Part shown: positions 28,052-46,698 of the stretch, one piece after another
Layout of the letters: each line of letters begins with the position of its first letter
Numbering within the stretch: the first letter of the stretch is position 1
Assembly (NCBI GenBank): GCA_964469045.1
Contig: CAYXXK010000009.1
Location: 5,012-69,011, forward strand
Source: an uncultured Klebsiella sp.
GTDB lineage: Bacteria > Chloroflexota > Chloroflexia > Chloroflexales > Roseiflexaceae
Length of the DNA: 64,000 nt
Reading direction: 5' to 3'
Translations under genes and position numbers: made by a program
The notes under the pieces: model-generated
Told to the model about the DNA's origin: nothing
What the model saw: only the letters and a program-made list of their open reading frames with translations
The model's database searches: none

Positions 28052-30511
28052 TCAAGTACGCCCAAGCAAATCATCACGAATGACGCCAATGACATCATAA
28101 AAGGTCATGTACAGATTAAATTTCTCTGCTTCACGAAGTGTTTGCGATACAATGCCGCGTGCCATTTGCAATTGTTGTTCGACCATTTGATCAAGCATGA
28201 CTCCACGATAGAGTCGGCGTTCTTCACGAAATTGTTGGCACAATGCGCTGAGTACGAGTGTCTCGTGTGCAAAGCCTAAACGCATCAACAATGCACTATA
28301 AATATCCATGATATACAGCATATCCTGCATGCCACCAGCTCGATGCAGCACGGTAAATGTCTCAATTAAATTACTGCGAGTTTCATCAAGTTCTCCGGCA
28401 AGTACGCTGATTGCCGCCAAACGCAGGTGACAATTTGCCATGTTAATAGGCATTGCAATACGGTTGAACTCTTGTCGCGCATAATGGAGATAATTGCGGG
28501 CGCCTGCGAAGTCACCGACGGCCATCAGAATCAAACCACGGTTATAGGCAGCATCAAGTAATCCTATAGTCACACCTGAATCGCGAAATAACGTCATGGC
28601 ATTATCGTTATACTCAAGTGCCTGGCGCAAATCGCCTACAGAAAAGTGCATAAAAGCCAACATATCGTAAGCACGCGCTTGCCAAGTAAGTTTGTTTTCG
28701 GCACCAAAATAATCAATTGCACGATGAAGATCGTCACATAATTCTACAAAGATACCGTGATCCATGGCATCAGCATCATGTAAACCATTAAGGCCATACT
28801 CAATGGCCGTACGCGCCCAAACGAACGATGCATTACTTGCGTTTGCTAACACATAGGCTTGGCGCAGGTATGTCAACGATAGGTTAATCAACCCACGGTT
28901 TCCGTACAAACTACCAAGCACATAGAGCAACTCCGCACGTTGTGGATGGTCACTAGGGAGTAGCAGTTCACAGCGCTCACACAAGCTGACGGCATCGGTT
29001 GTGAGTCCATGACGAATCCACAACGTATGCCAATTCACAAGAATCGCCACAGCCTCACTCACCAAGTTACTCGATAACAATAACTCAACCATATGAAGAG
29101 TGACAACGACATCGTTGGTCGTCACAAATGAGTTGTTGTGCTGAAAAACATCTTCCCACTTTACATCAATAAACAGCGTTGCCTTGGCCAGTTCACGCAT
29201 CAACTGATACTGTCGTTCATGCGTCATGCGTTGTTGAACGACTTGGCGAATCACGGCATGTACCGCATATAAATCCGCATCACCCCGTACTTGATAGATG
29301 ACTTGTCGTTGCTCGAGCGCATCCATCATACTCGGCAGCGCATACTCACTAATCGCAAATAAATGTTGGCTAACAAATTGTAGAAAGCGCAACGGGATAT
29401 GCAGACGACTGATACTTAACAACATCACAATCCGCATCTCGGTCGGATTCAGATAGTCAAGCGCCAATGCGACTGAATCACGCGACGATACAGGGTTTGG
29501 TTGCTGAGTCACTGCATTTGCAATCATAGCGATTAACAGCGGATTACCGTCTACTGCACGACATGAATTCAACACATAGGCGGCATCAATACGCGTACCG
29601 CCTGCCTGCAAAAAGACGCGCATGAAGAGTTGGCACGCAGCAGCGCGCTCATGGTCGGTGCGCAATGGTGGAACGGTAATGGCGTGTTGAATATCAATCA
29701 CCTCAGCAAGTTGAGCCATGCGCGAGGTTACCACAAAACGCAACGATGGAAAGTGTGTCATCATTTGCCGCAGGAGCACAGCAGGCGCCACGGCATTTTG
29801 TTCATCTGCATTATCGACCAGTACATACGAAGACTGCGTTTCGAGGACCATTTTGAGTCGTAACAAAATAGGCTCATTCGCAAGTGGTTTGATTTGGAAT
29901 GTCAAGGCTAGTTGTTGATAAAGCTGTCCTATCGATGATACTGTTGATACATCCAAATAGAACGTACGTTGTCCATGTGTAATCTCGTATTGACGCATTA
30001 ATTCTAGTGCAATCGCAGTTTTGCCAATTCCAGCTTCGCCAACCAACACAATATGGTGTCGTTGCAACATGATGTCACGCAATGATTCAAGCAAATAATC
30101 ACGCCCAATCAATGGGGCATTCACGCTTGGAGACGGCGGATAAAAGCCGTACTGCTGAAGCGCATGTTGCCACATATGGCGAGAAAAATACACATGAAAG
30201 TGTTGGAGCTGATCAACAGGGACGCGGATTGCCACAGCCAACTGCATGAATTCTTCTGCGCTCCAAATACCCGGTTGGCACTCAAATAACACATCAACCG
30301 TTGCAATAAACACCGCCATTGGTGCGGTACTATCACGTTCTGGCCGAGTCAAAAACATGTCATCAAAGCGTGCTCGGGTGAGATCCACGCCACGACGGCG
30401 CAATAAAGTGATGACATCTGGTACAAATATTTGATGCGAACGCAGGCGTTGAAACGCCAGCTTCATGAAATGAATAATTGTTGGTTTATCAAAAAACGTA
30501 TACGTAGTCAT
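28052..30511 (-). CDS. STAND-class P-loop NTPase (NB-ARC-like) with C-terminal TPR array and an unassigned N-terminal domain of about 130 aa
   Basis: Walker A VLVGEAGIGKT (30017-30040) and Walker B YVLVDNADE. The C-terminal half has repeated A-x-x-Y / G-x-L / A TPR-like helices. Spot GC counts are clearly below those of its neighbours. Confidence 0.8.
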   Translation of the reverse strand: MTTYTFFDKPTIIHFMKLAFQRLRSHQIFVPDVITLLRRRGVDLTRARFDDMFLTRPERDSTAPMAVFIATVDVLFECQPGIWSAEEFMQLAVAIRVPVDQLQHFHVYFSRHMWQHALQQYGFYPPSPSVNAPLIGRDYLLESLRDIMLQRHHIVLVGEAGIGKTAIALELMRQYEITHGQRTFYLDVSTVSSIGQLYQQLALTFQIKPLANEPILLRLKMVLETQSSYVLVDNADEQNAVAPAVLLRQMMTHFPSLRFVVTSRMAQLAEVIDIQHAITVPPLRTDHERAAACQLFMRVFLQAGGTRIDAAYVLNSCRAVDGNPLLIAMIANAVTQQPNPVSSRDSVALALDYLNPTEMRIVMLLSISRLHIPLRFLQFVSQHLFAISEYALPSMMDALEQRQVIYQVRGDADLYAVHAVIRQVVQQRMTHERQYQLMRELAKATLFIDVKWEDVFQHNNSFVTTNDVVVTLHMVELLLSSNLVSEAVAILVNWHTLWIRHGLTTDAVSLCERCELLLPSDHPQRAELLYVLGSLYGNRGLINLSLTYLRQAYVLANASNASFVWARTAIEYGLNGLHDADAMDHGIFVELCDDLHRAIDYFGAENKLTWQARAYDMLAFMHFSVGDLRQALEYNDNAMTLFRDSGVTIGLLDAAYNRGLILMAVGDFAGARNYLHYARQEFNRIAMPINMANCHLRLAAISVLAGELDETRSNLIETFTVLHRAGGMQDMLYIMDIYSALLMRLGFAHETLVLSALCQQFREERRLYRGVMLDQMVEQQLQMARGIVSQTLREAEKFNLYMTFYDVIGVIRDDLLGRT

Positions 30512-39864: not shown

Positions 39865-40980
39865 TTATTGCATGCGTGCAAGCAACTCAAACACGATGGG
39901 TTGCATACGCTCAATGCCCCACATCAACCACCCGCTGTACCACAACCATCCCACCGAGCCAAACAAAAGAACAACGACGATACCACGCCGCGATCGACGA
40001 GGCATAGTCACTACAGTTGCATCGTGAAGTGTATCAACCCGCTCATGCAAGCGATTGATTTCAATGCGCATATCTGCCGTAATTTGTTGCTGTGCGGCCA
40101 ACACACGATGCACTTTTTCTAGGGTAAGAAGCGTTTGCGTATCAGGACCTTTGGGGACAGGCAAGGCGGCAATATAGTGTTGCAGTTGATCGATCCGCTC
40201 TTCAAGCATACGCCGACCATCCACAACGGCTTCTGCGGTACCACTGACAAGCAGCAGTTGATCCTGCCGTAATTGGCTCACCTGCAGTTGCAACGTCTCT
40301 AGATGCCGTTGAGTTTGCTGTGTCTCTTGTTGATGTGTCGAAATACTCGCCTCTATGTCGAGAATCTGTTGTGCATATTGCGTGTACTGCTCCTTTTGAC
40401 GTACTGCATCTGCATGTTGTTGCTGTGCCTGTTGGATTGCTGTCAGCTGAGACGCATATTCAAGGCTTTGGGCACGAGCATACACGAGTTGGAGTTGAAT
40501 GCGTCGCTCTGCTGACTGATAGTGTTCCGGCAAAAGTGCCACCATCTGCATCATACGCGCAATCGAATCAATAATCATGGCGCCCGTCAATTGCCCCTGA
40601 TGATTCAACGCATTGCGCCGTAGTCGAATCAAACGCAACTCTTTCAATGGCGGTACAAACGCCGGTCGCACATCGACTTGCGCGGATCCGTTCGGCGCAA
40701 ACAGTACCGATGCATACCCAGTACGACCAGTATGCAACCCGCCATCGTGTGTCATCAGGTGAATAAGCGCCAAAAAATCAGGCCGTGGTTGACCATCAAC
40801 AAAATCCACATAAATCGCCGTGCGCTCACGCTTCGCTAGGCTATGCAAATGACTACTAAGTCGCTCGCCAAAATGCGCACGCATATGATCAAGTACATAC
40901 GGCGCATAGGCCGTCTGAAACAATTCGATTGCCTGTGCCATATACAATCGTTGGAGGGGCACTTCGGTAGCATGAACCAT
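39865..40980 (-). CDS. Swt1-like HEPN domain protein with long Gln-rich coiled coil and a C-terminal TM anchor
   Basis: N-terminal helical domain ending LKELRLIRLRRNALNHQ (Rx4H at 40600-40617); about 170 aa of heptad-like Q/L-rich sequence; C-terminal hydrophobic helix GIVVVLLFGSVGWLWYSGWLMWG. ATG at 40980 has GGAGG upstream. Confidence 0.65.
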   Translation of the reverse strand: MVHATEVPLQRLYMAQAIELFQTAYAPYVLDHMRAHFGERLSSHLHSLAKRERTAIYVDFVDGQPRPDFLALIHLMTHDGGLHTGRTGYASVLFAPNGSAQVDVRPAFVPPLKELRLIRLRRNALNHQGQLTGAMIIDSIARMMQMVALLPEHYQSAERRIQLQLVYARAQSLEYASQLTAIQQAQQQHADAVRQKEQYTQYAQQILDIEASISTHQQETQQTQRHLETLQLQVSQLRQDQLLLVSGTAEAVVDGRRMLEERIDQLQHYIAALPVPKGPDTQTLLTLEKVHRVLAAQQQITADMRIEINRLHERVDTLHDATVVTMPRRSRRGIVVVLLFGSVGWLWYSGWLMWGIERMQPIVFELLARMQ

Positions 40981-41059
40981 TTCGTATACCTCCATTGCGC
41001 AGTATGCGTATCATAGCACGGCATCATATGCGATTGCACCTGACCATTTGAGATGCGTC

Positions 41060-41098
41060 GCTCCCTCCACGCCGTAGTGAACGACGCATGGAGGGAGC
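41060..41098 (-). other. stem-loop downstream of rmuC (no T-tract)
   Basis: 10-bp stem gctccctcca / tggagggagc, with an alternative 6-bp pairing tgcgtc / gacgca. Confidence 0.45.
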
Positions 41099-41128
41099 AA
41101 CAACACGGATAGGCGAACGCATCACACA

Positions 41129-42211
41129 TCAGTCATTGATTTGTTTAATCTGAGTGATCTCAACTTCAGGCTCAGAAGGTATCAAAACCTCGATTGACTC
41201 GGGGCGCAGTTGATTGATTTTCTCGAGTTGTGGCACCACACGCGTGTTCCACGAGCTAGCCATTGCGTTGAGCGACTTATTGAGTTTGGCCAGATTGGTG
41301 CCAATATCGTCGTAATGCCCCATAAACGTCTTGAGTCGTTTAGTAAGTTCTTTGATCGAATCAAGCAGGCTCAAGGCGTTGGCAACCTCTTGACGTTGGC
41401 GCCAGCTGAAGTTTGCGGTACGCAACAGGGCCATCAACGTACCCGGTGTGGCAATGATGATATTGCGACTCAACGCAAAATCGACAATAGAATCGACATC
41501 ACTACGCCCCTCGTCCGCAAACGCCAAACTCCCCTCTACCTGGATGTACATCACGGTAAACGGCAGACTATTATTATCTCCGTGATAATTGCGTTTCACC
41601 AAGGCCATCACATGATCTTTGATGGCTTGATACTGCTGTCGCGCCAGTTCGGTGCGAGACTTTGCGTCAGGTGCTGCAACACCCTCAACATAGGCATTCA
41701 GCGAGATTTTGGCATCGACATAGACAACCGAATTATTGGCAAATTTAATTGCCATATCGGGGCGCCCCTCAGCAGTCCCACGTTGCACATCAAAATCAAC
41801 ATACTCACTCATACCACTCAACTCCACCAGCCGGCGCAACTGCAGCTCTCCCCAACTACCCATTTGTTTGTTGTTGCGCAAGGCACTGTCGAGCTTTTGT
41901 GTCTCACGACTAATTTGCTCACTGGCAGTTACCACTTGACGAATATTCTCACCGAGCTGCCCGAGTTTTTCGGATTGCGCCACTTGCAACTCACCCATAC
42001 GTGACTCGATACGTTGCACCTCTTGGCTGATGCGCACAATCGTCTCATCTAACATGGCCTTGGTGGTTGCACTTGTTTCATCTAATACCTCAGTGGCAAT
42101 ACTTTTGGCCTGTTCTTGGCGCTTGCCGTAATACAACATGGCTGCGCCTGCTGACAATGCAGCCCCCAACATAAAGCCAATCCCATACGCAAATGTCGGT
42201 TCCACACACAT
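41129..42211 (-). CDS. rmuC: DNA recombination protein RmuC (N-terminal TM helix and coiled coil, C-terminal PD-(D/E)xK-like nuclease domain)
   Basis: MGSWGELQLRRLVELSGM...VDFDVQ...RPDMAI...VYVDAKISL...FTVMYIQVE matches the RmuC family pattern. Confidence 0.85.
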   Translation of the reverse strand: MCVEPTFAYGIGFMLGAALSAGAAMLYYGKRQEQAKSIATEVLDETSATTKAMLDETIVRISQEVQRIESRMGELQVAQSEKLGQLGENIRQVVTASEQISRETQKLDSALRNNKQMGSWGELQLRRLVELSGMSEYVDFDVQRGTAEGRPDMAIKFANNSVVYVDAKISLNAYVEGVAAPDAKSRTELARQQYQAIKDHVMALVKRNYHGDNNSLPFTVMYIQVEGSLAFADEGRSDVDSIVDFALSRNIIIATPGTLMALLRTANFSWRQRQEVANALSLLDSIKELTKRLKTFMGHYDDIGTNLAKLNKSLNAMASSWNTRVVPQLEKINQLRPESIEVLIPSEPEVEITQIKQIND

Positions 42212-42280
42212 TTCCTTTCACAATAATTACCTATTACGTCACCAAAAATATTGTAGCATATATTTTACATGTACTACATT

Positions 42281-42308
42281 AAAAAAAATAGGGGAGCTAC
42301 AGCTCCCC
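42281..42308 (-). terminator. rho-independent terminator closing the HEPN-like / zinc-ribbon-TM gene pair
   Basis: Perfect 8-bp stem ggggagct / agctcccc (42291-42308). On the minus strand it is followed by T8 (42281-42288). It sits in a region of about 27 percent GC. Confidence 0.7.
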
Positions 42309-42470
42309 TAAAAATTTCATCGCATTACAATCAATAAAATTGATGTTTATTTAAAAAAATTATATGAGCGAAAAATGATAGTTTTGTGAGTAATTTTTAG
42401 CAGTTTATTTGCACATTTCCCCGCACACATATCAAACATTTTCTATGCACACGCATAATCTATGACAGGG

Positions 42471-43010
42471 TCATTCACGTGCGTATTCCGCCAAGATGCG
42501 TGCATAATCGCGCGCACGAAATGCGGTAAGTGTGGCAAGAAGTTGGAGTGCGGTCATTAGAAATCCAACAGAAGTGAGCATTGGCCAAGTATGCACTGCT
42601 GGTGCCCAGGCCAACTGCCAGTTACGCCACAGACTTATCGTAAGCACACACGCAACGCCCAAACATGCAAGAGCACTAATAAACGCAACTACTCCCAAAA
42701 ATTGATAGAACGACGCTTGTCGCATCAACACCCGAACAGTTGGGCGCGCAATAGGATGTACCTCACCATGCACATTCGGCTGTGGACGCCTAAAGAGCGA
42801 CAGATAGTCATCATCAACGCGATCCTTGACAGGTGGGATGACTACTAACTGCTGACCACTCAATGCCGGGGCATCGTCACGGATCGCAGTAACCGGCACA
42901 TCGATGATGTGCGCATGCACTAGTGATGTATGACATGTTGCACATACGACATTCGTCAAGGCGCATACACGCTTGCAGTTAGGGCACACTTTGTGCCGAA
43001 TTTTGGGCAT
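42471..43010 (-). CDS. hypothetical zinc-ribbon protein with two C-terminal TM helices
   Basis: CPNC-x10-CATC at the N-terminus and two hydrophobic helices (FLGVVAFISALACLGVACVLTISLW; MLTSVGFLMTALQLLATLTAF). ATG at 43010 with GAGG upstream is preferred over the GTG at 43043. Confidence 0.55.
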   Translation of the reverse strand: MPKIRHKVCPNCKRVCALTNVVCATCHTSLVHAHIIDVPVTAIRDDAPALSGQQLVVIPPVKDRVDDDYLSLFRRPQPNVHGEVHPIARPTVRVLMRQASFYQFLGVVAFISALACLGVACVLTISLWRNWQLAWAPAVHTWPMLTSVGFLMTALQLLATLTAFRARDYARILAEYARE

Positions 43011-43105
43011 CAACACACCTCTGCACATACGCTCTATTGCCACATGCGCTGGTGCGCAATGACATGCCAGACACCCCTAACACAAAAAAATAGCCCATCA
43101 GTATG

Positions 43106-44161
43106 CTATACATCGGTGGTAGTAATGGTGATACCCCGTACATTCGCTTTGTCGAACATGACTTTGGTGACACGACAATACCCACGAAACACCACATCAG
43201 ATTGACCTGACACTCTTTGGAACAGTGGAACTGGCATGGTATGCTCACCAATAACGCCTTGCCAATCATCAAGCAACTTCACAGGGTTCTCAAGCATAAC
43301 CATACCCTCAGCACCTATGGCTTGTACAGGTGCCACCACATAACAAAATCGTCTATTTACCATTGGCATGTCGAAACGAATACTGCCGGCGAGGCGTTGA
43401 TATACCTCAAGCCGTGAAAGAGATGCACCACGCACAACGCCATCGAGTTGAAGCGCAATTCGTTGTGCATACAGTCCATCATCTGCATACAGTGCTCGTT
43501 CGCTCGCAAGTCGCCTCGTCATTTTGTTACGCATATTCTGCATATGTGAATACAATCGTCGCAGGAATCCCAACACACCATCGCTAAAATGTGCCGAGCG
43601 AAACATGGCATCATGAACGAGTGCATTGCGCACTTTGGTGAATTGTTCAAGCAGATGGAAGGTGTGCACATCAACATCATGACTCCACAGCAAAAAGCGA
43701 CAGATGCGCAATGCTTCGGTCACATCTCGTTTGAGTTTGTATTTTTGCTGTGGATCATTCTGGATTACTTCGTAAATTTCAGCTTCTTCGGCAGCCGTCA
43801 ATGGTTGCGTCCCATTAATCACGGCCATGCGCTGACGATACATGGCCCGCAAGCGATTTTCGATGAGAGAGCAGAGCAGCATGACGGCACCCATGCGGGC
43901 AAGCATGCTGTCAGATGCGAAGGTCAATGCATCATCCTGCATCGCGTCATCTTCTATAGTTTGTTCGGACGGAACGATTTGACGAATTTGTTTCATTGCC
44001 GATTCAAGATCAACATACACTGCGCTCGTATCAACTGTTTTGACCACGCCGATGATACGTTCAAAATCAACACTGGGTATCAGTGGGTATTTTTGTTTTG
44101 TGTGCTCATAATTTTGAAATGTAGCTTCAACAAGCTGGAAGCGTACGTGATTGTTTGACAT
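43106..44161 (-). CDS. hypothetical protein with a central HEPN-like domain (Rx4H) and an unassigned C-terminal domain
   Basis: Helical region LLCSLIENRLRAMYRQ ... LLEQFTKVRNALVHDAMF (R178-H183 encoded at 43613-43630). GAGG RBS and a TATAAT box (44191-44196) lie upstream. Confidence 0.55.
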   Translation of the reverse strand: MSNNHVRFQLVEATFQNYEHTKQKYPLIPSVDFERIIGVVKTVDTSAVYVDLESAMKQIRQIVPSEQTIEDDAMQDDALTFASDSMLARMGAVMLLCSLIENRLRAMYRQRMAVINGTQPLTAAEEAEIYEVIQNDPQQKYKLKRDVTEALRICRFLLWSHDVDVHTFHLLEQFTKVRNALVHDAMFRSAHFSDGVLGFLRRLYSHMQNMRNKMTRRLASERALYADDGLYAQRIALQLDGVVRGASLSRLEVYQRLAGSIRFDMPMVNRRFCYVVAPVQAIGAEGMVMLENPVKLLDDWQGVIGEHTMPVPLFQRVSGQSDVVFRGYCRVTKVMFDKANVRGITITTTDV

Positions 44162-44371
44162 GGCAGAACCTCATAGCATGGTACACAATCATTATACTGC
44201 CGTGTCACGTTATGGGTATGTTGAATTTGGCTGATACATGTCACACCGACACACAAGCAGTGCAATTAATCACGGGGCGGTGTATGCCATCACCTCAATG
44301 CCCATGAGTACGTCGCTCGATAGCAATAATCAAAACCTACCTGATGTGCAATACATCTCACACGTGCGATA

Positions 44372-44407
44372 GCACCACGTTCATACCAGTCGTTGTGAAC
44401 GTGGTGC
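44372..44407. other. perfect 12-bp stem-loop between the PARG operon and the HEPN-like operon
   Basis: gcaccacgttca (44372-44383) / tgaacgtggtgc (44396-44407) with a 12-nt loop. No flanking T-tract on either strand. Confidence 0.5.
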
Positions 44408-44481
44408 AACTTGACTGACAGTATGTAGTCAAAGCATAGTCACGGCAACAAGATGCAGTACAAGTCACATGCCTGTCCCCC

Positions 44482-45366
44482 CTATCCACCAAACACGCGC
44501 CCATCAAAATACCGCATAAACGCCTGATAATTCAGTGGAGGATCATACATATCAGCCACCGCAAAATCAATCGCCACAAACCGACGCATATCAACCACAT
44601 CCATCATGTCATCCATAATTTGTGCAATATCTTCGGGATTATTGCCAAATGCACCACATCCCCATGCCCCCAAAATCAAAATGTCGGCGTCGAGTGTCGT
44701 CGCCACCTGAAAGACTTTTTGAGTGCGATATTGCATGTGCAATCCTATCTCACCCACACGGTCTGGCATATACCGGTGCACAGCATTCGCGTGCACTGCT
44801 GCACTCGTAATCACATCGGCATGCCACGGCGTGTCGATGAATTGACCATCATGATGTCGAAAGAACGGTACCGTCGGCGAAACAATCACCGTGTCGTTAT
44901 AAAACGGATTCCGATGATGTGATGTATCAAAGTAGAACTCATCATCGCGCAGCGAGTGGACCAGCGTTGATGCGCGCGCCAATGACTCCTCTTGTGCCTG
45001 TGAACCATTCAACCAACCACCACCTGGCGAAACGGCACTCGCTAGATTCAAAATGGCCACGCGAAATCCTTGCATCACCCGCGCCTCAGCTACTGCCAAT
45101 GTCGTCTGGTTGTACACAAATGTGTGCACCTGTGCATGCCGAGGAGCGCTCATCATTGGCGTGACACCGGGTCGGTATACGACCTGCCCCTGCGTCGCTG
45201 CATCGCGCGCCGCCCGAATATCAACTTGAGTCCCATGCGCATTTGTGTACCAGCCGCGCGCGGTAATCGCCTGCGTCTCGCGACACATGGTGGCCGATGC
45301 ATGCCGGGGCATAATTAAGGTGTCGAGCGTCAACGTGGGGAGCATCAGTTTCTCTGGGGTTTTCAT
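44482..45366 (-). CDS. bacterial-type poly(ADP-ribose) glycohydrolase (TIGR02452 / DUF2263 macrodomain family)
   Basis: PARG signature GGG-WLNGSQA-QEE (encoded at 44986-45024), plus ILNLASA and LILGAWGCGAFGN motifs. ATG at 45366 has AAGGAG upstream. Confidence 0.85.
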   Translation of the reverse strand: MKTPEKLMLPTLTLDTLIMPRHASATMCRETQAITARGWYTNAHGTQVDIRAARDAATQGQVVYRPGVTPMMSAPRHAQVHTFVYNQTTLAVAEARVMQGFRVAILNLASAVSPGGGWLNGSQAQEESLARASTLVHSLRDDEFYFDTSHHRNPFYNDTVIVSPTVPFFRHHDGQFIDTPWHADVITSAAVHANAVHRYMPDRVGEIGLHMQYRTQKVFQVATTLDADILILGAWGCGAFGNNPEDIAQIMDDMMDVVDMRRFVAIDFAVADMYDPPLNYQAFMRYFDGRVFGG

Positions 45367-45379
45367 TGCATTTCTCCTT

Positions 45380-45874
45380 TTAGAGTCTCCAATTACCGGC
45401 TGCAATCCACGCCGCCAAATCAAACTGATGTGATTTCTTTACGGCCGGATTGATGCGTGTTTGTGCCGCATGTTGTATCAACCGCTGGTGTGCTGGGCGT
45501 ACAATCGCCATCGCCGCCACTGCATCACCAGGCTCAGCAAATAATGCTACAGATCCGGGTACCGATGCATATGCGCCGACTTCACCTTCCTCAGCAAACA
45601 TACCCGTCAATGTAATCTGCCAATCGGTCACCGCATCGATTTGATTAAACACACCTTCATCCACCACGATGTTGATTTCGTTGCGAGTAAATATCAATAC
45701 CTCAATCATGCCGACATTCAGCCGTAACGCATCACGGTTACATGTCAGCGTCCATTTGTCTGGTGCAATCTGTTGTGCATATGCCATGCTCTCTGCGAGC
45801 ATGCACAATAATCCGGCACGCATGCGTGCATCAGGAAGATGTTTTTGGACGAATTGAAAGACATCGGTGGCCAT
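45380..45874 (-). CDS. hypothetical protein (164 aa), first gene of the PARG operon
   Basis: ATG at 45874 has AAGGA upstream. Its stop is 13 nt before the PARG start. I recognise no domain. Confidence 0.55.
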   Translation of the reverse strand: MATDVFQFVQKHLPDARMRAGLLCMLAESMAYAQQIAPDKWTLTCNRDALRLNVGMIEVLIFTRNEINIVVDEGVFNQIDAVTDWQITLTGMFAEEGEVGAYASVPGSVALFAEPGDAVAAMAIVRPAHQRLIQHAAQTRINPAVKKSHQFDLAAWIAAGNWRL

Positions 45875-45981
45875 ATGTTTTCCTTTCTGAGATACTTCTA
45901 CGCACAATGACAACACCATCATTCATCGTGTGGCTATGTAAAAACCAATTCCACGCACGTATGTGCAAAGAACTATGATTG

Positions 45982-46698
45982 TTATGGCATTTGTGCAAGT
46001 AATCGGCCAATCTCTTTGTCAAACTCAACTACTTCTACGACCCAGTCGTACACCACACGGCGGGATGCGGCACTCGGTGAGCCAAACGCAATCTCGACAC
46101 GCATCTCAACAAACGCAGGAATCATCGTATCGCGCATCAATTTGAGGTAATACGCTATTTCAGTTGGTTGATCCGCACAGGTAGGCACTCGCATACCATT
46201 CAAACCAGCGAACACTTCGTTGACGGCGCCTTCGCTCGTCCCCGGCAAGTATATTTCTTGCACGTAATATGCCATGACATTGGCCAATACCCCAGCATCT
46301 TTGCGCATTTGGGTAGCTTTTTGTATGAATGGCGCAAGCTCTTTTTTGCATGCAGAAATACGATCAACTGTAGCCGTCGGCACCGGTGTCTCTGTTGGCA
46401 CACGTGTCTTTGTTGGAGGTATTGTCTCCGTCGGCACCGGTGTGTCGGTCGGAACCACCGTCTCCGTTGCCGTCGCTGTCGGAATCATCGTCTCCGTTGC
46501 CGTCGCTGTCGGAACCATCGTCTCCGTTGCCGTCGCTGTCGGAATCATCGTCTCTGTTGGGGCCAACGTGGCAGTAGCTGTTGTCGTGGGCACGCGCACG
46601 ATTGCCGTCATCCGCTCTTGGGCTTCAGGAGTCAATAAAATCACCATCATCATCACGACTGTTAGCACAATAATCGTACGCATATTGCTGCTCTTCAT
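45982..46698 (-). CDS. secreted or membrane-anchored protein with Thr/Pro-rich tandem-repeat linker and unknown C-terminal domain
   Basis: N-terminal hydrophobic helix, a (TATATETM[IV]P)n linker, and a C-terminal domain of about 125 aa containing two Cys. Confidence 0.65.
   Translation of the reverse strand: MKSSNMRTIIVLTVVMMMVILLTPEAQERMTAIVRVPTTTATATLAPTETMIPTATATETMVPTATATETMIPTATATETVVPTDTPVPTETIPPTKTRVPTETPVPTATVDRISACKKELAPFIQKATQMRKDAGVLANVMAYYVQEIYLPGTSEGAVNEVFAGLNGMRVPTCADQPTEIAYYLKLMRDTMIPAFVEMRVEIAFGSPSAASRRVVYDWVVEVVEFDKEIGRLLAQMP
46451..46560. repeat. 30-nt in-frame tandem repeat, about 3.7 copies
   Basis: ggaa(c/t)ca(c/t)cgtctccgttgccgtcgctgtc repeats head to tail and encodes TATATETM(I/V)P units on the minus strand. 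Confidence 0.85.

What the first reader, a model, noticed from the sequence alone, without database searches (positions are those of the whole stretch)
42281..44196. Self-contained two-gene operon: HEPN-like 351-aa protein plus zinc-ribbon two-TM protein (candidate abortive-infection-type module)
Boundaries read from the sequence:
- Upstream there is a perfect TATAAT box (44191-44196) and a GAGG RBS.
- Downstream there is an 8-bp GC hairpin followed by T8 (42281-42308).

Gene 1 (351 aa):
- It has a helical core ending LLEQFTKVRNALVHDAMF (Rx4H encoded at 43613-43630), preceded by a helix LLCSLIENRLRAMYRQ. That fits a HEPN four-helix domain.
- It also has an N-terminal segment of about 80 aa and a C-terminal domain of about 130 aa, and I cannot assign either.

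Gene 2 (179 aa, 95 nt downstream):
- It has a CPNC-x10-CATC zinc ribbon and two C-terminal TM helices.

Interpretation:
- A predicted RNase-type domain paired with a small membrane protein is a recurring logic in phage-defence and toxin-antitoxin modules.
- I do not recognise this particular pair as a named system.
- Both flanking intergenic regions are strongly AT-rich. Lines 42241-42300 and 42361-42420 counted 27 and 28 percent GC.
Basis: partly seen in the sequence, partly recalled or inferred. Interest (0 to 1): 0.7.

Follow-up and report, generated by a model that had tools for sequence, protein, structure and literature searches.

The report
RNase fused to modified-base reader
The two genes are real, and the larger one encodes a rare, unannotated protein that joins a predicted RNA-cutting (HEPN) domain to a domain shaped like the readers of methylated DNA used by modification-dependent restriction enzymes, so it is most likely an unusual anti-phage sensor-effector, here paired with a small zinc-binding membrane protein.

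Summary
The sequence observation holds: a 351-aa and a 179-aa ORF on the minus strand, an Rx4H motif, a zinc ribbon and a strong terminator. Two details fail. Only the downstream spacer is AT-rich, and the TATAAT has no -35 partner.

- **Gene 1, HEPN part.** R178, N179 and H183 are invariant down to 18-27% identity. One relative passes Pfam's threshold for DUF4145, a HEPN-clan family. Matches to solved HEPN toxin structures are weak.
- **Gene 1, C-terminal domain.** It models (pLDDT 86) as an SRA-like barrel. Its 15 best PDB matches are all 5mC/5hmC-reading SRA domains or the equivalent domains of type IV restriction enzymes.
- **Rarity.** The family has about 30 members among billions of proteins, and no library names it.
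- **Distant relatives.** They sit beside type III R-M, BREX, GmrSD and DISARM-like genes.
- **The window's own clade (Chloroflexota).** The pair lies in a conserved, mostly housekeeping block and evolves fast.
- **Gene 2.** It occurs only in this clade, always next to gene 1. One sub-clade has an RCC1-repeat protein in its place.

Best reading: a modification-sensing HEPN RNase with an exchangeable partner. It is a new variant of a known theme, with moderate interest.

The parts
44191..44196 (-). TATAAT, candidate -10 box about 30 nt upstream of the gene 1 start
   Evidence: Exact match. No -35 partner, and the scan does not call it a promoter. Weak evidence only.
44169..44172 (-). GAGG ribosome-binding site, 7 nt before the gene 1 ATG
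   Evidence: Read from the sequence.
43106..44161 (-). Gene 1, 351 aa: N-terminal region, HEPN-like domain and SRA-like domain
   Evidence: ORF. 16 close and about 14 distant homologues. AF2 model with pLDDT 71.
43913..44161 (-). Gene 1 residues 1-83: N-terminal region specific to the close clade, unassigned
   Evidence: 39-63% identity within the clade and not alignable to distant homologues. Low model confidence.
43487..43912 (-). Gene 1 residues 84-225: HEPN-like helical domain
   Evidence: Invariant G91, E101, R103, Y108, R178, N179, H183, A185 and R211. 71-87% identity within the clade. Relative P0031 passes the DUF4145 cut-off. Weak Foldseek matches to HepT toxins.
43613..43630 (-). Codons for R178-N-A-L-V-H183, the predicted catalytic Rx4H motif
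   Evidence: Invariant in all 24 aligned family members.
43109..43486 (-). Gene 1 residues 226-351: SRA-like (PUA-superfamily) beta-barrel, predicted modified-base reader
   Evidence: Domain model with pLDDT 86. The top 15 PDB matches are all SRA or SRA-like domains, best E = 2.4e-3, Foldseek probability 0.90-1.00 for the first ten, TMq 0.50-0.58 for the plant and UHRF1 SRA domains. The top viral match is a ScoMcrA-like SRA protein.
43011..43105 (-). 95-nt spacer between gene 1 and gene 2, with AGAGG 7 nt before the gene 2 ATG
   Evidence: no significant structure, z = -0.72.
42471..43010 (-). Gene 2, 179 aa: zinc ribbon, conserved linker motif and a membrane hairpin
   Evidence: ORF. Orthologue alignment A4. 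Always found next to gene 1.
42930..42986 (-). Gene 2 residues 9-27: CPxC-x10-CxxCH zinc ribbon
   Evidence: C9, C12, C23, C26 and H27 are invariant. Sub-threshold match to the Pfam double zinc ribbon.
42627..42710 (-). Gene 2 residues 101-128: first transmembrane helix
   Evidence: Kyte-Doolittle 19-residue mean of 2.0-2.65.
42519..42584 (-). Gene 2 residues 143-164: probable second transmembrane helix
   Evidence: Mean hydropathy about 1.56, just under the 1.6 threshold used (hand count on the sequence printed). Hydrophobic in all orthologues.
42281..42310 (-). Intrinsic terminator: 9-bp stem, 4-nt loop, T8
   Evidence: sequence.

Best explanation
**What gene 1 is.** Gene 1 encodes a single-chain sensor-effector. 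A C-terminal SRA-like barrel is predicted to recognise a modified base. The base could be in invading DNA, read by base flipping as in SRA domains and MspJI/AspBHI-type enzymes, or in a modified nucleotide or RNA. This barrel is joined to a DUF4145-like HEPN domain whose invariant R-N-x3-H site is predicted to cleave RNA.

**How it would act.** That would shut down translation of phage or host RNA. In effect it would be an RNA-cutting counterpart of a type IV restriction enzyme, acting as a back-up to DNA-modification-based immunity.

**What gene 2 is.** Gene 2 is a lineage-specific, exchangeable partner: a cytoplasmic zinc ribbon tethered to the membrane by a helical hairpin. It most likely holds or regulates gene 1 at the membrane, as an inhibitor or gate. 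Less likely, it is a second effector.

**Shown:** the gene structures, the conserved motifs, the predicted folds, the genomic contexts and the pattern of conservation.

**Inferred:** RNase activity, the ligand, the activation step, the role of gene 2 and the defence function itself.
For: **HEPN domain**
- The R178/N179/H183 motif is invariant in 24 family members, down to 18-27% identity.
- Relative P0031 matches gene 1 at E = 4e-5 in 1.84 billion proteins. It scores 27.0 bits against DUF4145, whose cut-off is 23.1 bits, and it has sub-threshold HepT matches over the motif helix.
- DUF4145 is a HEPN-clan family linked to R-M systems (PMC3710099). It includes the experimentally shown RNase RAZR (PMC13017515).

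**Reader domain**
- The domain model has pLDDT 86.
- Its 15 best PDB matches are exclusively SRA or SRA-like domains: SUVH5/6, KRYPTONITE, UHRF1, ScoMcrA, AspBHI, MspJI and SauUSI.
- The full-length model gives the same answer against the PDB and against the viral library.

**Defence role, from the contexts of distant homologues**
- One lies directly after a type III R-M Mod and Res pair, near an AAA_15/21 ATPase and GmrSD.
- In two loci the order is GmrSD, then a 149-aa protein, then the homologue. One of these abuts BREX brxL/pglZ.
- One lies next to BrxC.
- A HEPN-only form follows a MmeI/Eco57I-type methyltransferase among SNF2 and DEAD-DUF1998 helicases.

**Pattern of conservation**
- Gene 1 (57%) and gene 2 (38%) evolve much faster than their neighbours RmuC (90%) and GH77 (96%).

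**Precedent**
- PUA-like reader domains fused to HEPN and other effectors have been noted computationally (bioRxiv 10.64898/2026.01.15.699771).
- HEPN RNases have been proposed as back-up effectors in R-M and BREX loci.
Against: - The window protein itself matches no HEPN or SRA profile. Structural matches to HepT are weak (probability 0.66, E about 1).
- The SRA matches are modest (TM about 0.5-0.58, rmsd 5-6 A, 10-14% identity). The base-binding pocket was not examined.
- In this genome and its close relatives the pair sits in a vertically inherited, syntenic and mostly housekeeping block. That block includes GH77, an M60 peptidase, RmuC, PARG, GH5, an aldolase and a kinase.
- No mobile-element hallmarks were seen in that block, and no homologues exist on known plasmids or phages. 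This is unlike typical defence genes.
- No methyltransferase or other immunity gene is adjacent here.
- Nothing shows that gene 2 interacts with gene 1. One sub-clade keeps gene 1 without gene 2.
Confidence: 0.5

Rival explanations
1. The pair is a two-gene abortive-infection or toxin-antitoxin module in which the HEPN RNase is the toxin and the zinc-ribbon membrane protein is its antitoxin or membrane effector. The C-terminal domain plays no reading role.
For: - The two genes are adjacent and co-oriented, with a 47-98 nt spacer, in every locus where gene 2 occurs.
- A strong terminator follows gene 2.
- Both genes evolve fast.
- Architectures combining HEPN (DUF4145), a zinc ribbon and TM segments are on record (PMC3710099). 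RAZR is a zinc-finger HEPN abortive-infection protein.
Against: - Gene 2 is absent from all distant family members. It is replaced by an RCC1-repeat protein in a sister sub-clade that keeps an intact Rx4H. An essential antitoxin would not be lost in this way.
- HEPN toxins normally pair with MNT antitoxins, and none is present.
- The model ignores a confidently modelled SRA-like domain that is kept in most family members.
Confidence: 0.2
2. This is a lineage-specific housekeeping function. Gene 1 would be an RNA-processing or RNA-surveillance nuclease whose PUA-superfamily barrel binds a structured or modified host RNA such as tRNA or rRNA. Alternatively, the barrel reads host DNA methylation. 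Gene 2 would localise the protein at the membrane. There would be no role in immunity.
For: - There is strict synteny over about 16 kb between genomes whose gene 1 proteins are only 57% identical. The flanking genes are metabolic and secreted-enzyme genes.
- There are no hits on plasmids or phages.
- The catalytic core is strongly conserved.
- PUA-like folds (PUA, YTH, EVE) also bind RNA (PMC7641849; PMC11090510).
Against: - Every distant homologue whose contig carried recognisable neighbours lies in an R-M, BREX or GmrSD neighbourhood.
- The family is extremely rare and patchy, which is not what a housekeeping RNase looks like.
- The best structural matches are DNA 5mC/5hmC readers, not RNA-binding PUA or YTH domains.
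- The partner gene was swapped within the clade.
Confidence: 0.2
3. The SRA-like assignment is a fold coincidence. The C-terminal domain would be a generic small beta-barrel used for oligomerisation or for binding a protein trigger. RAZR, for example, is triggered by phage proteins. The HEPN RNase would then be activated by something other than a modified base.
For: - Foldseek E-values are only 2e-3 to 1e-1, TM is about 0.5, and sequence identity is 10-14%.
- There is no match to the SAD_SRA Pfam family.
- HEPN-only family members exist (P0027, P0028, P0031).
- RAZR shows that a DUF4145-type HEPN can be activated by phage protein assemblies.
Against: - The 15 top PDB matches, and the single good viral match, all belong to one functional class.
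- Probabilities are 0.90-1.00 for the first ten.
- Relatives lie beside GmrSD and R-M genes, where modified-base reading is the recurring theme.
Confidence: 0.1

Closest known systems
DUF4145-like HEPN RNases (Pfam PF13643, clan CL0291), including RAZR (ring-activated zinc-finger RNase)
   Same: - It has a helical domain with an invariant R-N-x3-H motif.
- A family member passes the DUF4145 cut-off.
- DUF4145 proteins are recorded as fused or adjacent to R-M components, and as fused with zinc-ribbon and TM segments.
- RAZR combines a Cys4 zinc ribbon with this HEPN type and acts by abortive infection through RNA cleavage.
   Different: - The window protein itself does not reach any DUF4145 or HEPN profile.
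- The zinc ribbon is on a separate membrane protein, not fused.
- An SRA-like domain is attached, which was not seen in the passages of the RAZR paper or the 2013 HEPN survey that were read.
- No PADLOC model matches.
Modification-dependent (type IV) restriction enzymes with SRA or SRA-like readers: SRA-HNH (TagI, ScoA3IV), MspJI, AspBHI, SauUSI, ScoMcrA
   Same: - The C-terminal domain has the same fold class as their modified-cytosine-reading domains.
- It has the same reader-plus-nuclease, single-polypeptide logic.
- Relatives sit next to GmrSD, R-M and BREX genes.
   Different: - The effector is a HEPN domain, predicted to be an RNase, and not an HNH, PD-(D/E)xK or PLD DNase.
- There is no SAD_SRA sequence signature.
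PUA-like reader domains fused to alternative effectors (the PUA-Cal-HAD family and relatives)
   Same: A preprint reports PUA-like domains fused to HEPN, TIR, HNH and McrB effectors. It shows for one member that a modified nucleotide (m6-dAMP) is the trigger. This is the same sensor-plus-exchangeable-effector logic.
   Different: - No sequence relation to that PUA family was tested.
- Our barrel resembles SRA rather than the PUA family described there.
- The partner genes differ (no HAD phosphatase).
CoCoNuT type IV systems and HEPN accessory effectors of BREX and BREX-related loci
   Same: Both are predicted RNA-targeting arms of restriction-type immunity. In both, HEPN domains sit alongside modified-base readers and are placed in or beside BREX and R-M operons.
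   Different: - There is no McrB GTPase, McrC, coiled-coil nuclease tandem or helicase.
- Ours is a small stand-alone protein.
- In this genome it is not next to any such system.

Membership tests
HEPN superfamily (Pfam clan CL0291) | Conserved Rx4-6H motif, usually with N, D or H after the R | tested here: met
   R178-N179-x3-H183 is invariant in 16 close and 8 or more distant homologues.
HEPN superfamily (Pfam clan CL0291) | Significant profile match of the protein itself to a HEPN-clan family | tested here: not met
   No Pfam, NCBIfam or PDB-sequence match for the window protein or for the family profile.
HEPN superfamily (Pfam clan CL0291) | Transitive link: a demonstrable homologue belongs to a HEPN-clan family | tested here: met
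   P0031 matches gene 1 at E = 4e-5 in 1.84 billion proteins. It scores 27.0 bits on DUF4145, above the 23.1-bit cut-off. It also gives HepT-like E = 0.01 and HepT_toxin E = 2.5e-4 over the motif helix.
HEPN superfamily (Pfam clan CL0291) | All-alpha helical-bundle core resembling solved HEPN domains | tested here: inconclusive
   The model is helical over residues 86-224. Foldseek matches to HepT toxins 7ae9, 7ae6 and 7bxo are weak (probability 0.2-0.66, E 1-3, TMt 0.4-0.59).
HEPN superfamily (Pfam clan CL0291) | Metal-independent endoribonuclease activity | not testable with these tools
   Needs biochemistry.
SRA / SRA-like modified-base readers (PUA-like superfamily) | SRA-type beta-barrel fold | tested here: met
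   The domain model has pLDDT 86. The 15 best PDB matches are all SRA or SRA-like, with best E = 2.4e-3, probability 0.90-1.00 for the first ten, and TMq 0.50-0.58 for the plant and UHRF1 SRA domains. This is corroborated.
SRA / SRA-like modified-base readers (PUA-like superfamily) | Sequence membership of Pfam SAD_SRA | tested here: not met
   No Pfam match at E <= 1. The resemblance is structural only, as I recall being the case for the MspJI/AspBHI reader domains (my own knowledge, not checked here).
SRA / SRA-like modified-base readers (PUA-like superfamily) | Pocket that accepts a flipped 5mC/5hmC, with flanking finger loops | not tested
   Residue-level structural alignments were not available. 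Conserved positions R250, G259, S260, P266, Y274, F314 and G327 were not mapped onto a pocket.
Type IV (modification-dependent) restriction endonucleases | Reader domain coupled to a DNA-cleaving domain (HNH, PD-(D/E)xK, PLD or GmrSD type) | tested here: not met
   No DNase domain was found by profiles or in the model. The only catalytic candidate is HEPN.
RAZR | N-terminal Cys4 zinc ribbon fused to a DUF4145 HEPN domain in one polypeptide | tested here: not met
   Gene 1 has no zinc ribbon. The ribbon is in gene 2, together with the TM helices.
HEPN-MNT (type VII) toxin-antitoxin | Adjacent minimal nucleotidyltransferase antitoxin | tested here: not met
   The neighbours are the zinc-ribbon membrane protein, PARG and RmuC. 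No MNT is present.
Known defence systems in PADLOC-DB v2 | Match of either protein to a system model | tested here: not met
   No matches for gene 1 or gene 2 at E <= 1.

The most novel reading that the evidence does not exclude
Gene 1 defines an uncharacterised class of 'RNA-cutting type IV restriction' proteins. An SRA-like base-flipping reader detects modified bases in incoming phage DNA, or in its breakdown products, and directly switches on a fused HEPN RNase. A swappable partner sets the threshold or the location: here a membrane-tethered zinc ribbon, elsewhere an RCC1-repeat protein or a GmrSD-linked small protein. In this Chloroflexota lineage the module has become a fixed core-genome gene rather than a mobile island gene.
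Probability: 0.3. Interest if true: 0.7.

Novelty: new variant of a known kind. Interest (0 to 1): 0.52.

Why it matters
**If the prediction holds.** This would be a compact, single-protein link between reading DNA modifications and cleaving RNA. Modification-dependent restriction enzymes characterised so far cut DNA. RNA-targeting versions have been predicted computationally (CoCoNuTs, PUA-like-HEPN fusions), and the papers read here do not report a test of an SRA-like-HEPN fusion.

**Why it is a good test case.**
- The family is small and unannotated.
- It has clean, invariant catalytic residues.
- It occurs naturally both with and without the reader domain, and with different partners.
- This makes it a tractable system for asking how a reader domain gates a HEPN RNase.

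**Possible use.** A modification-triggered RNase could also be useful as a detection tool.

**If the prediction fails.** The result still assigns folds to a family that no library names. It also shows that the membrane-protein pairing is lineage-specific rather than a conserved system.

Tried and rejected
**Profile and sequence libraries (nothing usable)**
- Pfam, PADLOC, NCBIfam and PHROGs on gene 1 and gene 2 gave no usable match.
- Sequence and profile searches of the PDB found nothing meaningful. I tried the full family profile, a HEPN-only profile and P0031 alone.
- tblastn of gene 1 against plasmid and phage collections gave no match.

**Homology searches**
- Gene 2 returned only 2 proteins. 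Its other orthologues had to be found by position.
- A second search with the broad profile A2 added only P0031.
- A2 was too divergent for a metagenome locus scan. A1 was used instead and gave 6 loci.

**Ideas tested and not supported**
- Is the neighbouring 376-aa RRNALNH protein a paralogue of gene 1? BLASTP finds nothing. hhalign aligns only the 29-column motif region at 2.5% probability. Homology is not shown.
- Is there a terminator or attenuator between gene 1 and gene 2? The fold is not better than shuffled sequence.
- Does RmuC belong to the module? It matches a PADLOC DRT-associated RmuC model only through the generic RmuC domain. It is 90% conserved and is absent from the RCC1 sub-clade. 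I treated it as a neighbour, not a component.
- Is the TATAAT a full promoter? It is not supported by a -35 hexamer.
Full report
**1. The observation**

The two ORFs exist as described. Gene 1 is 43106-44161 (-), 351 aa. Gene 2 is 42471-43010 (-), 179 aa, and lies 95 nt downstream. An alternative GTG start at 43043 is ruled out, because the orthologues begin at the same MxxI(R/H)xKVCP.

The following features are all present:
- The Rx4H codons at 43613-43630.
- The helix LLCSLIENRLRAMYRQ.
- The CPNC-x10-CATC ribbon.
- The two GAGG sites, each 7 nt before an ATG.
- The TATAAT at 44191-44196.
- The hairpin plus T8 at 42281-42310.

The hairpin is the only strong terminator-like site in 41000-45600 (9-bp stem, 6 G-C pairs, T8).

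Two details fail:
- Only the downstream spacer is AT-rich (29.7% GC). The upstream spacer is 47.5% GC.
- The TATAAT has no -35 partner and is not called by the promoter scan. TATAAT is, however, rare in the window, with 12 sites against 20.7 expected.

The second transmembrane segment of gene 2 is marginal, at about 1.56 by hand count on the sequence. The first is clear (2.0-2.65). The spacer between the genes shows no significant structure.

**2. A very small, unnamed family**

Gene 1 has only 16 relatives among 5.8 billion clustered proteins. It has 15 among 1.84 billion representatives read exhaustively by HMMER. No Pfam, PADLOC, NCBIfam or PHROGs model matches it. It has no homologue on known plasmids or phages.

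Named relatives are Chloroflexota / Roseiflexaceae MAGs from lake metagenomes. One record is titled 'uncultured Klebsiella', but it is syntenic with the Chloroflexota contigs and is probably mislabelled.

**3. The helical core is HEPN-like**

- Across 24 aligned members, down to 18-27% identity, the invariant residues are R178, N179, H183, A185 and R211. In a HEPN-only alignment, G91, E101, R103, Y108 and L157 are also invariant.
- The AlphaFold2 model (pLDDT 71) is helical over residues 86-224.
- The window protein reaches no HEPN profile directly.
- Its relative P0031 matches gene 1 at E = 4e-5 in the exhaustive search. P0031 scores 27.0 bits on Pfam DUF4145, above the 23.1-bit cut-off. It also has sub-threshold HepT matches over the motif helix.
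- Other members give weak RiboL-PSP-HEPN and DUF3644 matches.
- DUF4145 is a HEPN-clan family that Anantharaman et al. found fused or adjacent to R-M components, and fused with zinc-ribbon and TM segments (PMC3710099).
- RAZR, a zinc-finger plus DUF4145 protein, is an experimentally shown abortive-infection RNase (PMC13017515).
- Foldseek similarity of the helical part to HepT toxin structures is weak (probability up to 0.66).

I rate HEPN membership as well supported but not proven.

**4. The C-terminal domain is SRA-like**

This is the main new finding. The full-length model's best PDB matches were SUVH5 SRA domains, SauUSI and AspBHI.

A separate model of residues 220-351, built with a 25-sequence alignment, reached pLDDT 86. 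Its 15 best PDB matches are all SRA or SRA-like modified-cytosine readers:
- SUVH6, SUVH5, KRYPTONITE and UHRF1.
- The reader domains of the type IV enzymes ScoMcrA, AspBHI, MspJI and SauUSI.

The best E-value is 2.4e-3. Foldseek probability is 0.90-1.00 for the first ten matches. TMq is 0.50-0.58 for the plant and UHRF1 SRA domains and lower for several of the restriction enzymes.

Against the viral structure library, the single good match is a 'ScoMcrA-like SRA domain-containing protein'.

There is no SAD_SRA sequence match. The resemblance is therefore structural only, and the base-binding pocket was not examined.

**5. Genomic context: two different pictures**

*(a) The window and its close clade (57-74% identity).* The order u180-PARG-gene1-gene2-RmuC-u376-M60 peptidase-GH77 is conserved. 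The surroundings are metabolic and secreted-enzyme genes. This is a vertically inherited block, not a variable island.

Within the block, the protein identities between the window and L001 are:

| Protein | Identity (%) |
|---|---|
| GH77 | 96 |
| RmuC | 90 |
| GH5 | 89 |
| PARG | 76 |
| M60 peptidase | 75 |
| u180 | 69 |
| gene 1 | 57 |
| u376 | 55 |
| gene 2 | 38 |

Inside gene 1, the HEPN core stays at 71-87% identity. The SRA-like domain falls to 40-64% and the N-terminus to 39-63%.

*(b) Distant homologues (about 30% identity).* These lie in loci of 36-56% GC, and every one whose contig carried recognisable neighbours has defence genes beside it:
- One lies directly after a type III R-M Mod and Res pair. 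It overlaps a 200-aa N-terminally anchored membrane protein and is near an AAA_15/21 ATPase and GmrSD.
- In two loci the order is GmrSD, then a 147/149-aa protein, then the homologue. One of these abuts BREX brxL/pglZ.
- One locus has tandem HEPN-only and full-length paralogues beside BrxC.
- A HEPN-only form follows a MmeI/Eco57I-type methyltransferase among SNF2 and DEAD-DUF1998 helicases and a NERD helicase.

The loci holding P0023 (L018, L019) are short and carry only unannotated neighbours.

**6. Gene 2**

- It is a real, conserved protein. C9, C12, C23, C26 and H27 are invariant, as is a PP-x5-D-x2-YL-x-LF-x-RP motif. These are followed by a hydrophobic hairpin.
- Flanking arginines suggest that both ends are cytoplasmic. 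This is inference.
- It is found only in the close clade and always next to gene 1.
- The pairing is not obligatory. In a sister sub-clade (P0011, P0005, L008), gene 1 keeps an intact Rx4H but is followed by an 851-870-aa RCC1-repeat protein, with a 4-nt overlap in L026. There gene 2 and RmuC are missing.
- None of the distant homologues has a gene 2 relative.

**7. Mechanism**

The best-supported reading is a reader-coupled RNase. The SRA-like domain senses a modified base, and the HEPN domain cleaves RNA. The protein would serve as a back-up arm of modification-based immunity.

This theme has been proposed for HEPN domains in R-M and BREX loci, for CoCoNuTs and for PUA-like reader-effector fusions. 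Gene 2 would be an exchangeable regulator or membrane tether.

- Shown: the motifs, the predicted folds, the contexts and the conservation pattern.
- Inferred: the activity, the ligand, the activation step, the role of the partner and the immune function.

The main counter-argument is the stable, housekeeping-like location in this lineage. It keeps a non-immune RNA-processing or epigenetic-reader role alive, at about 0.2.

**8. Comparison and novelty**

The protein is not a member of any named system:
- It fails the defining feature of type IV restriction enzymes, because it has no DNase domain.
- It fails that of RAZR, because the zinc ribbon is not fused.
- It fails that of HEPN-MNT toxin-antitoxin pairs, because there is no MNT.

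It works like a hybrid of these. I classify it as a new variant of a known kind: an unannotated DUF4145-like HEPN family carrying an SRA-like reader, with lineage-specific partners. Interest is moderate. The logic is anticipated in recent computational work, but this architecture is unnamed in every library searched and untested in the papers read, and it is easy to test.

Noticed in passing
window 39865-40995 (-): A 376-aa protein with an invariant RRNxLxHQGxLTG motif (an Rx4H like that of HEPN), a long Q-rich coiled coil and a C-terminal TM helix (GWLWYSGWLMWGI). It stays near gene 1 even in loci that lack gene 2 and RmuC. No library matches it. Profile comparison with the gene 1 HEPN region aligns only the motif (2.5% probability). 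It may be a second, membrane-anchored HEPN-like protein.
   Followed up: partly
L008 1105-3675; L026 3603-6215; L029 1379-3934: In a sister sub-clade, gene 1 is followed by an 851-870-aa RCC1-repeat protein with an unassigned C-terminal region that looks kinase-like by eye. In L026 the two genes overlap by 4 nt. This protein takes the place of gene 2 and RmuC.
   Followed up: partly
L014 140-3270; L017 342-4090: A conserved trio: a GmrSD-family enzyme, then a 147/149-aa unannotated protein, then a gene 1 homologue. In L017 the trio abuts BREX brxL/pglZ. The small protein's sequence looks EVE/ASCH-like by eye, but no profile matched.
   Followed up: partly
L009 8342-10166: Tandem paralogues of the family, one HEPN-only (234 aa) and one full-length (344 aa), lie next to a 1255-aa BrxC/DUF6079 ATPase on the opposite strand.
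   Followed up: partly
window 28052-30511 (-): An 819-aa STAND-type protein (NACHT/AAA_22 plus TPR), about 12 kb from the finding. It is the only other conflict-type gene seen in the surveyed part of the window, 28-58 kb.
   Followed up: no
window 44482-45922 (-): A microbial-type PARG (PF10021) is preceded by a conserved 164-180-aa protein with no family match. The two ORFs overlap and are syntenic in all close relatives. In L002 an M50 peptidase gene is inserted between PARG and gene 1.
   Followed up: partly
window 45982-46698 (-): A 238-aa protein with an N-terminal hydrophobic segment and PT-rich tandem repeats (PTATATETM[VI]). No family match.
   Followed up: no
window 42359-42364 (-): A second exact TATAAT lies in the 24-29% GC spacer between the terminator and RmuC. 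It is a plausible RmuC promoter element.
   Followed up: no
L002 / L005 (record CAYZZI010000033.1): The record title says 'uncultured Klebsiella sp.', but the contig is syntenic, gene for gene, with Chloroflexota / Roseiflexaceae MAG contigs. It is probably a mislabelled bin.
   Followed up: no
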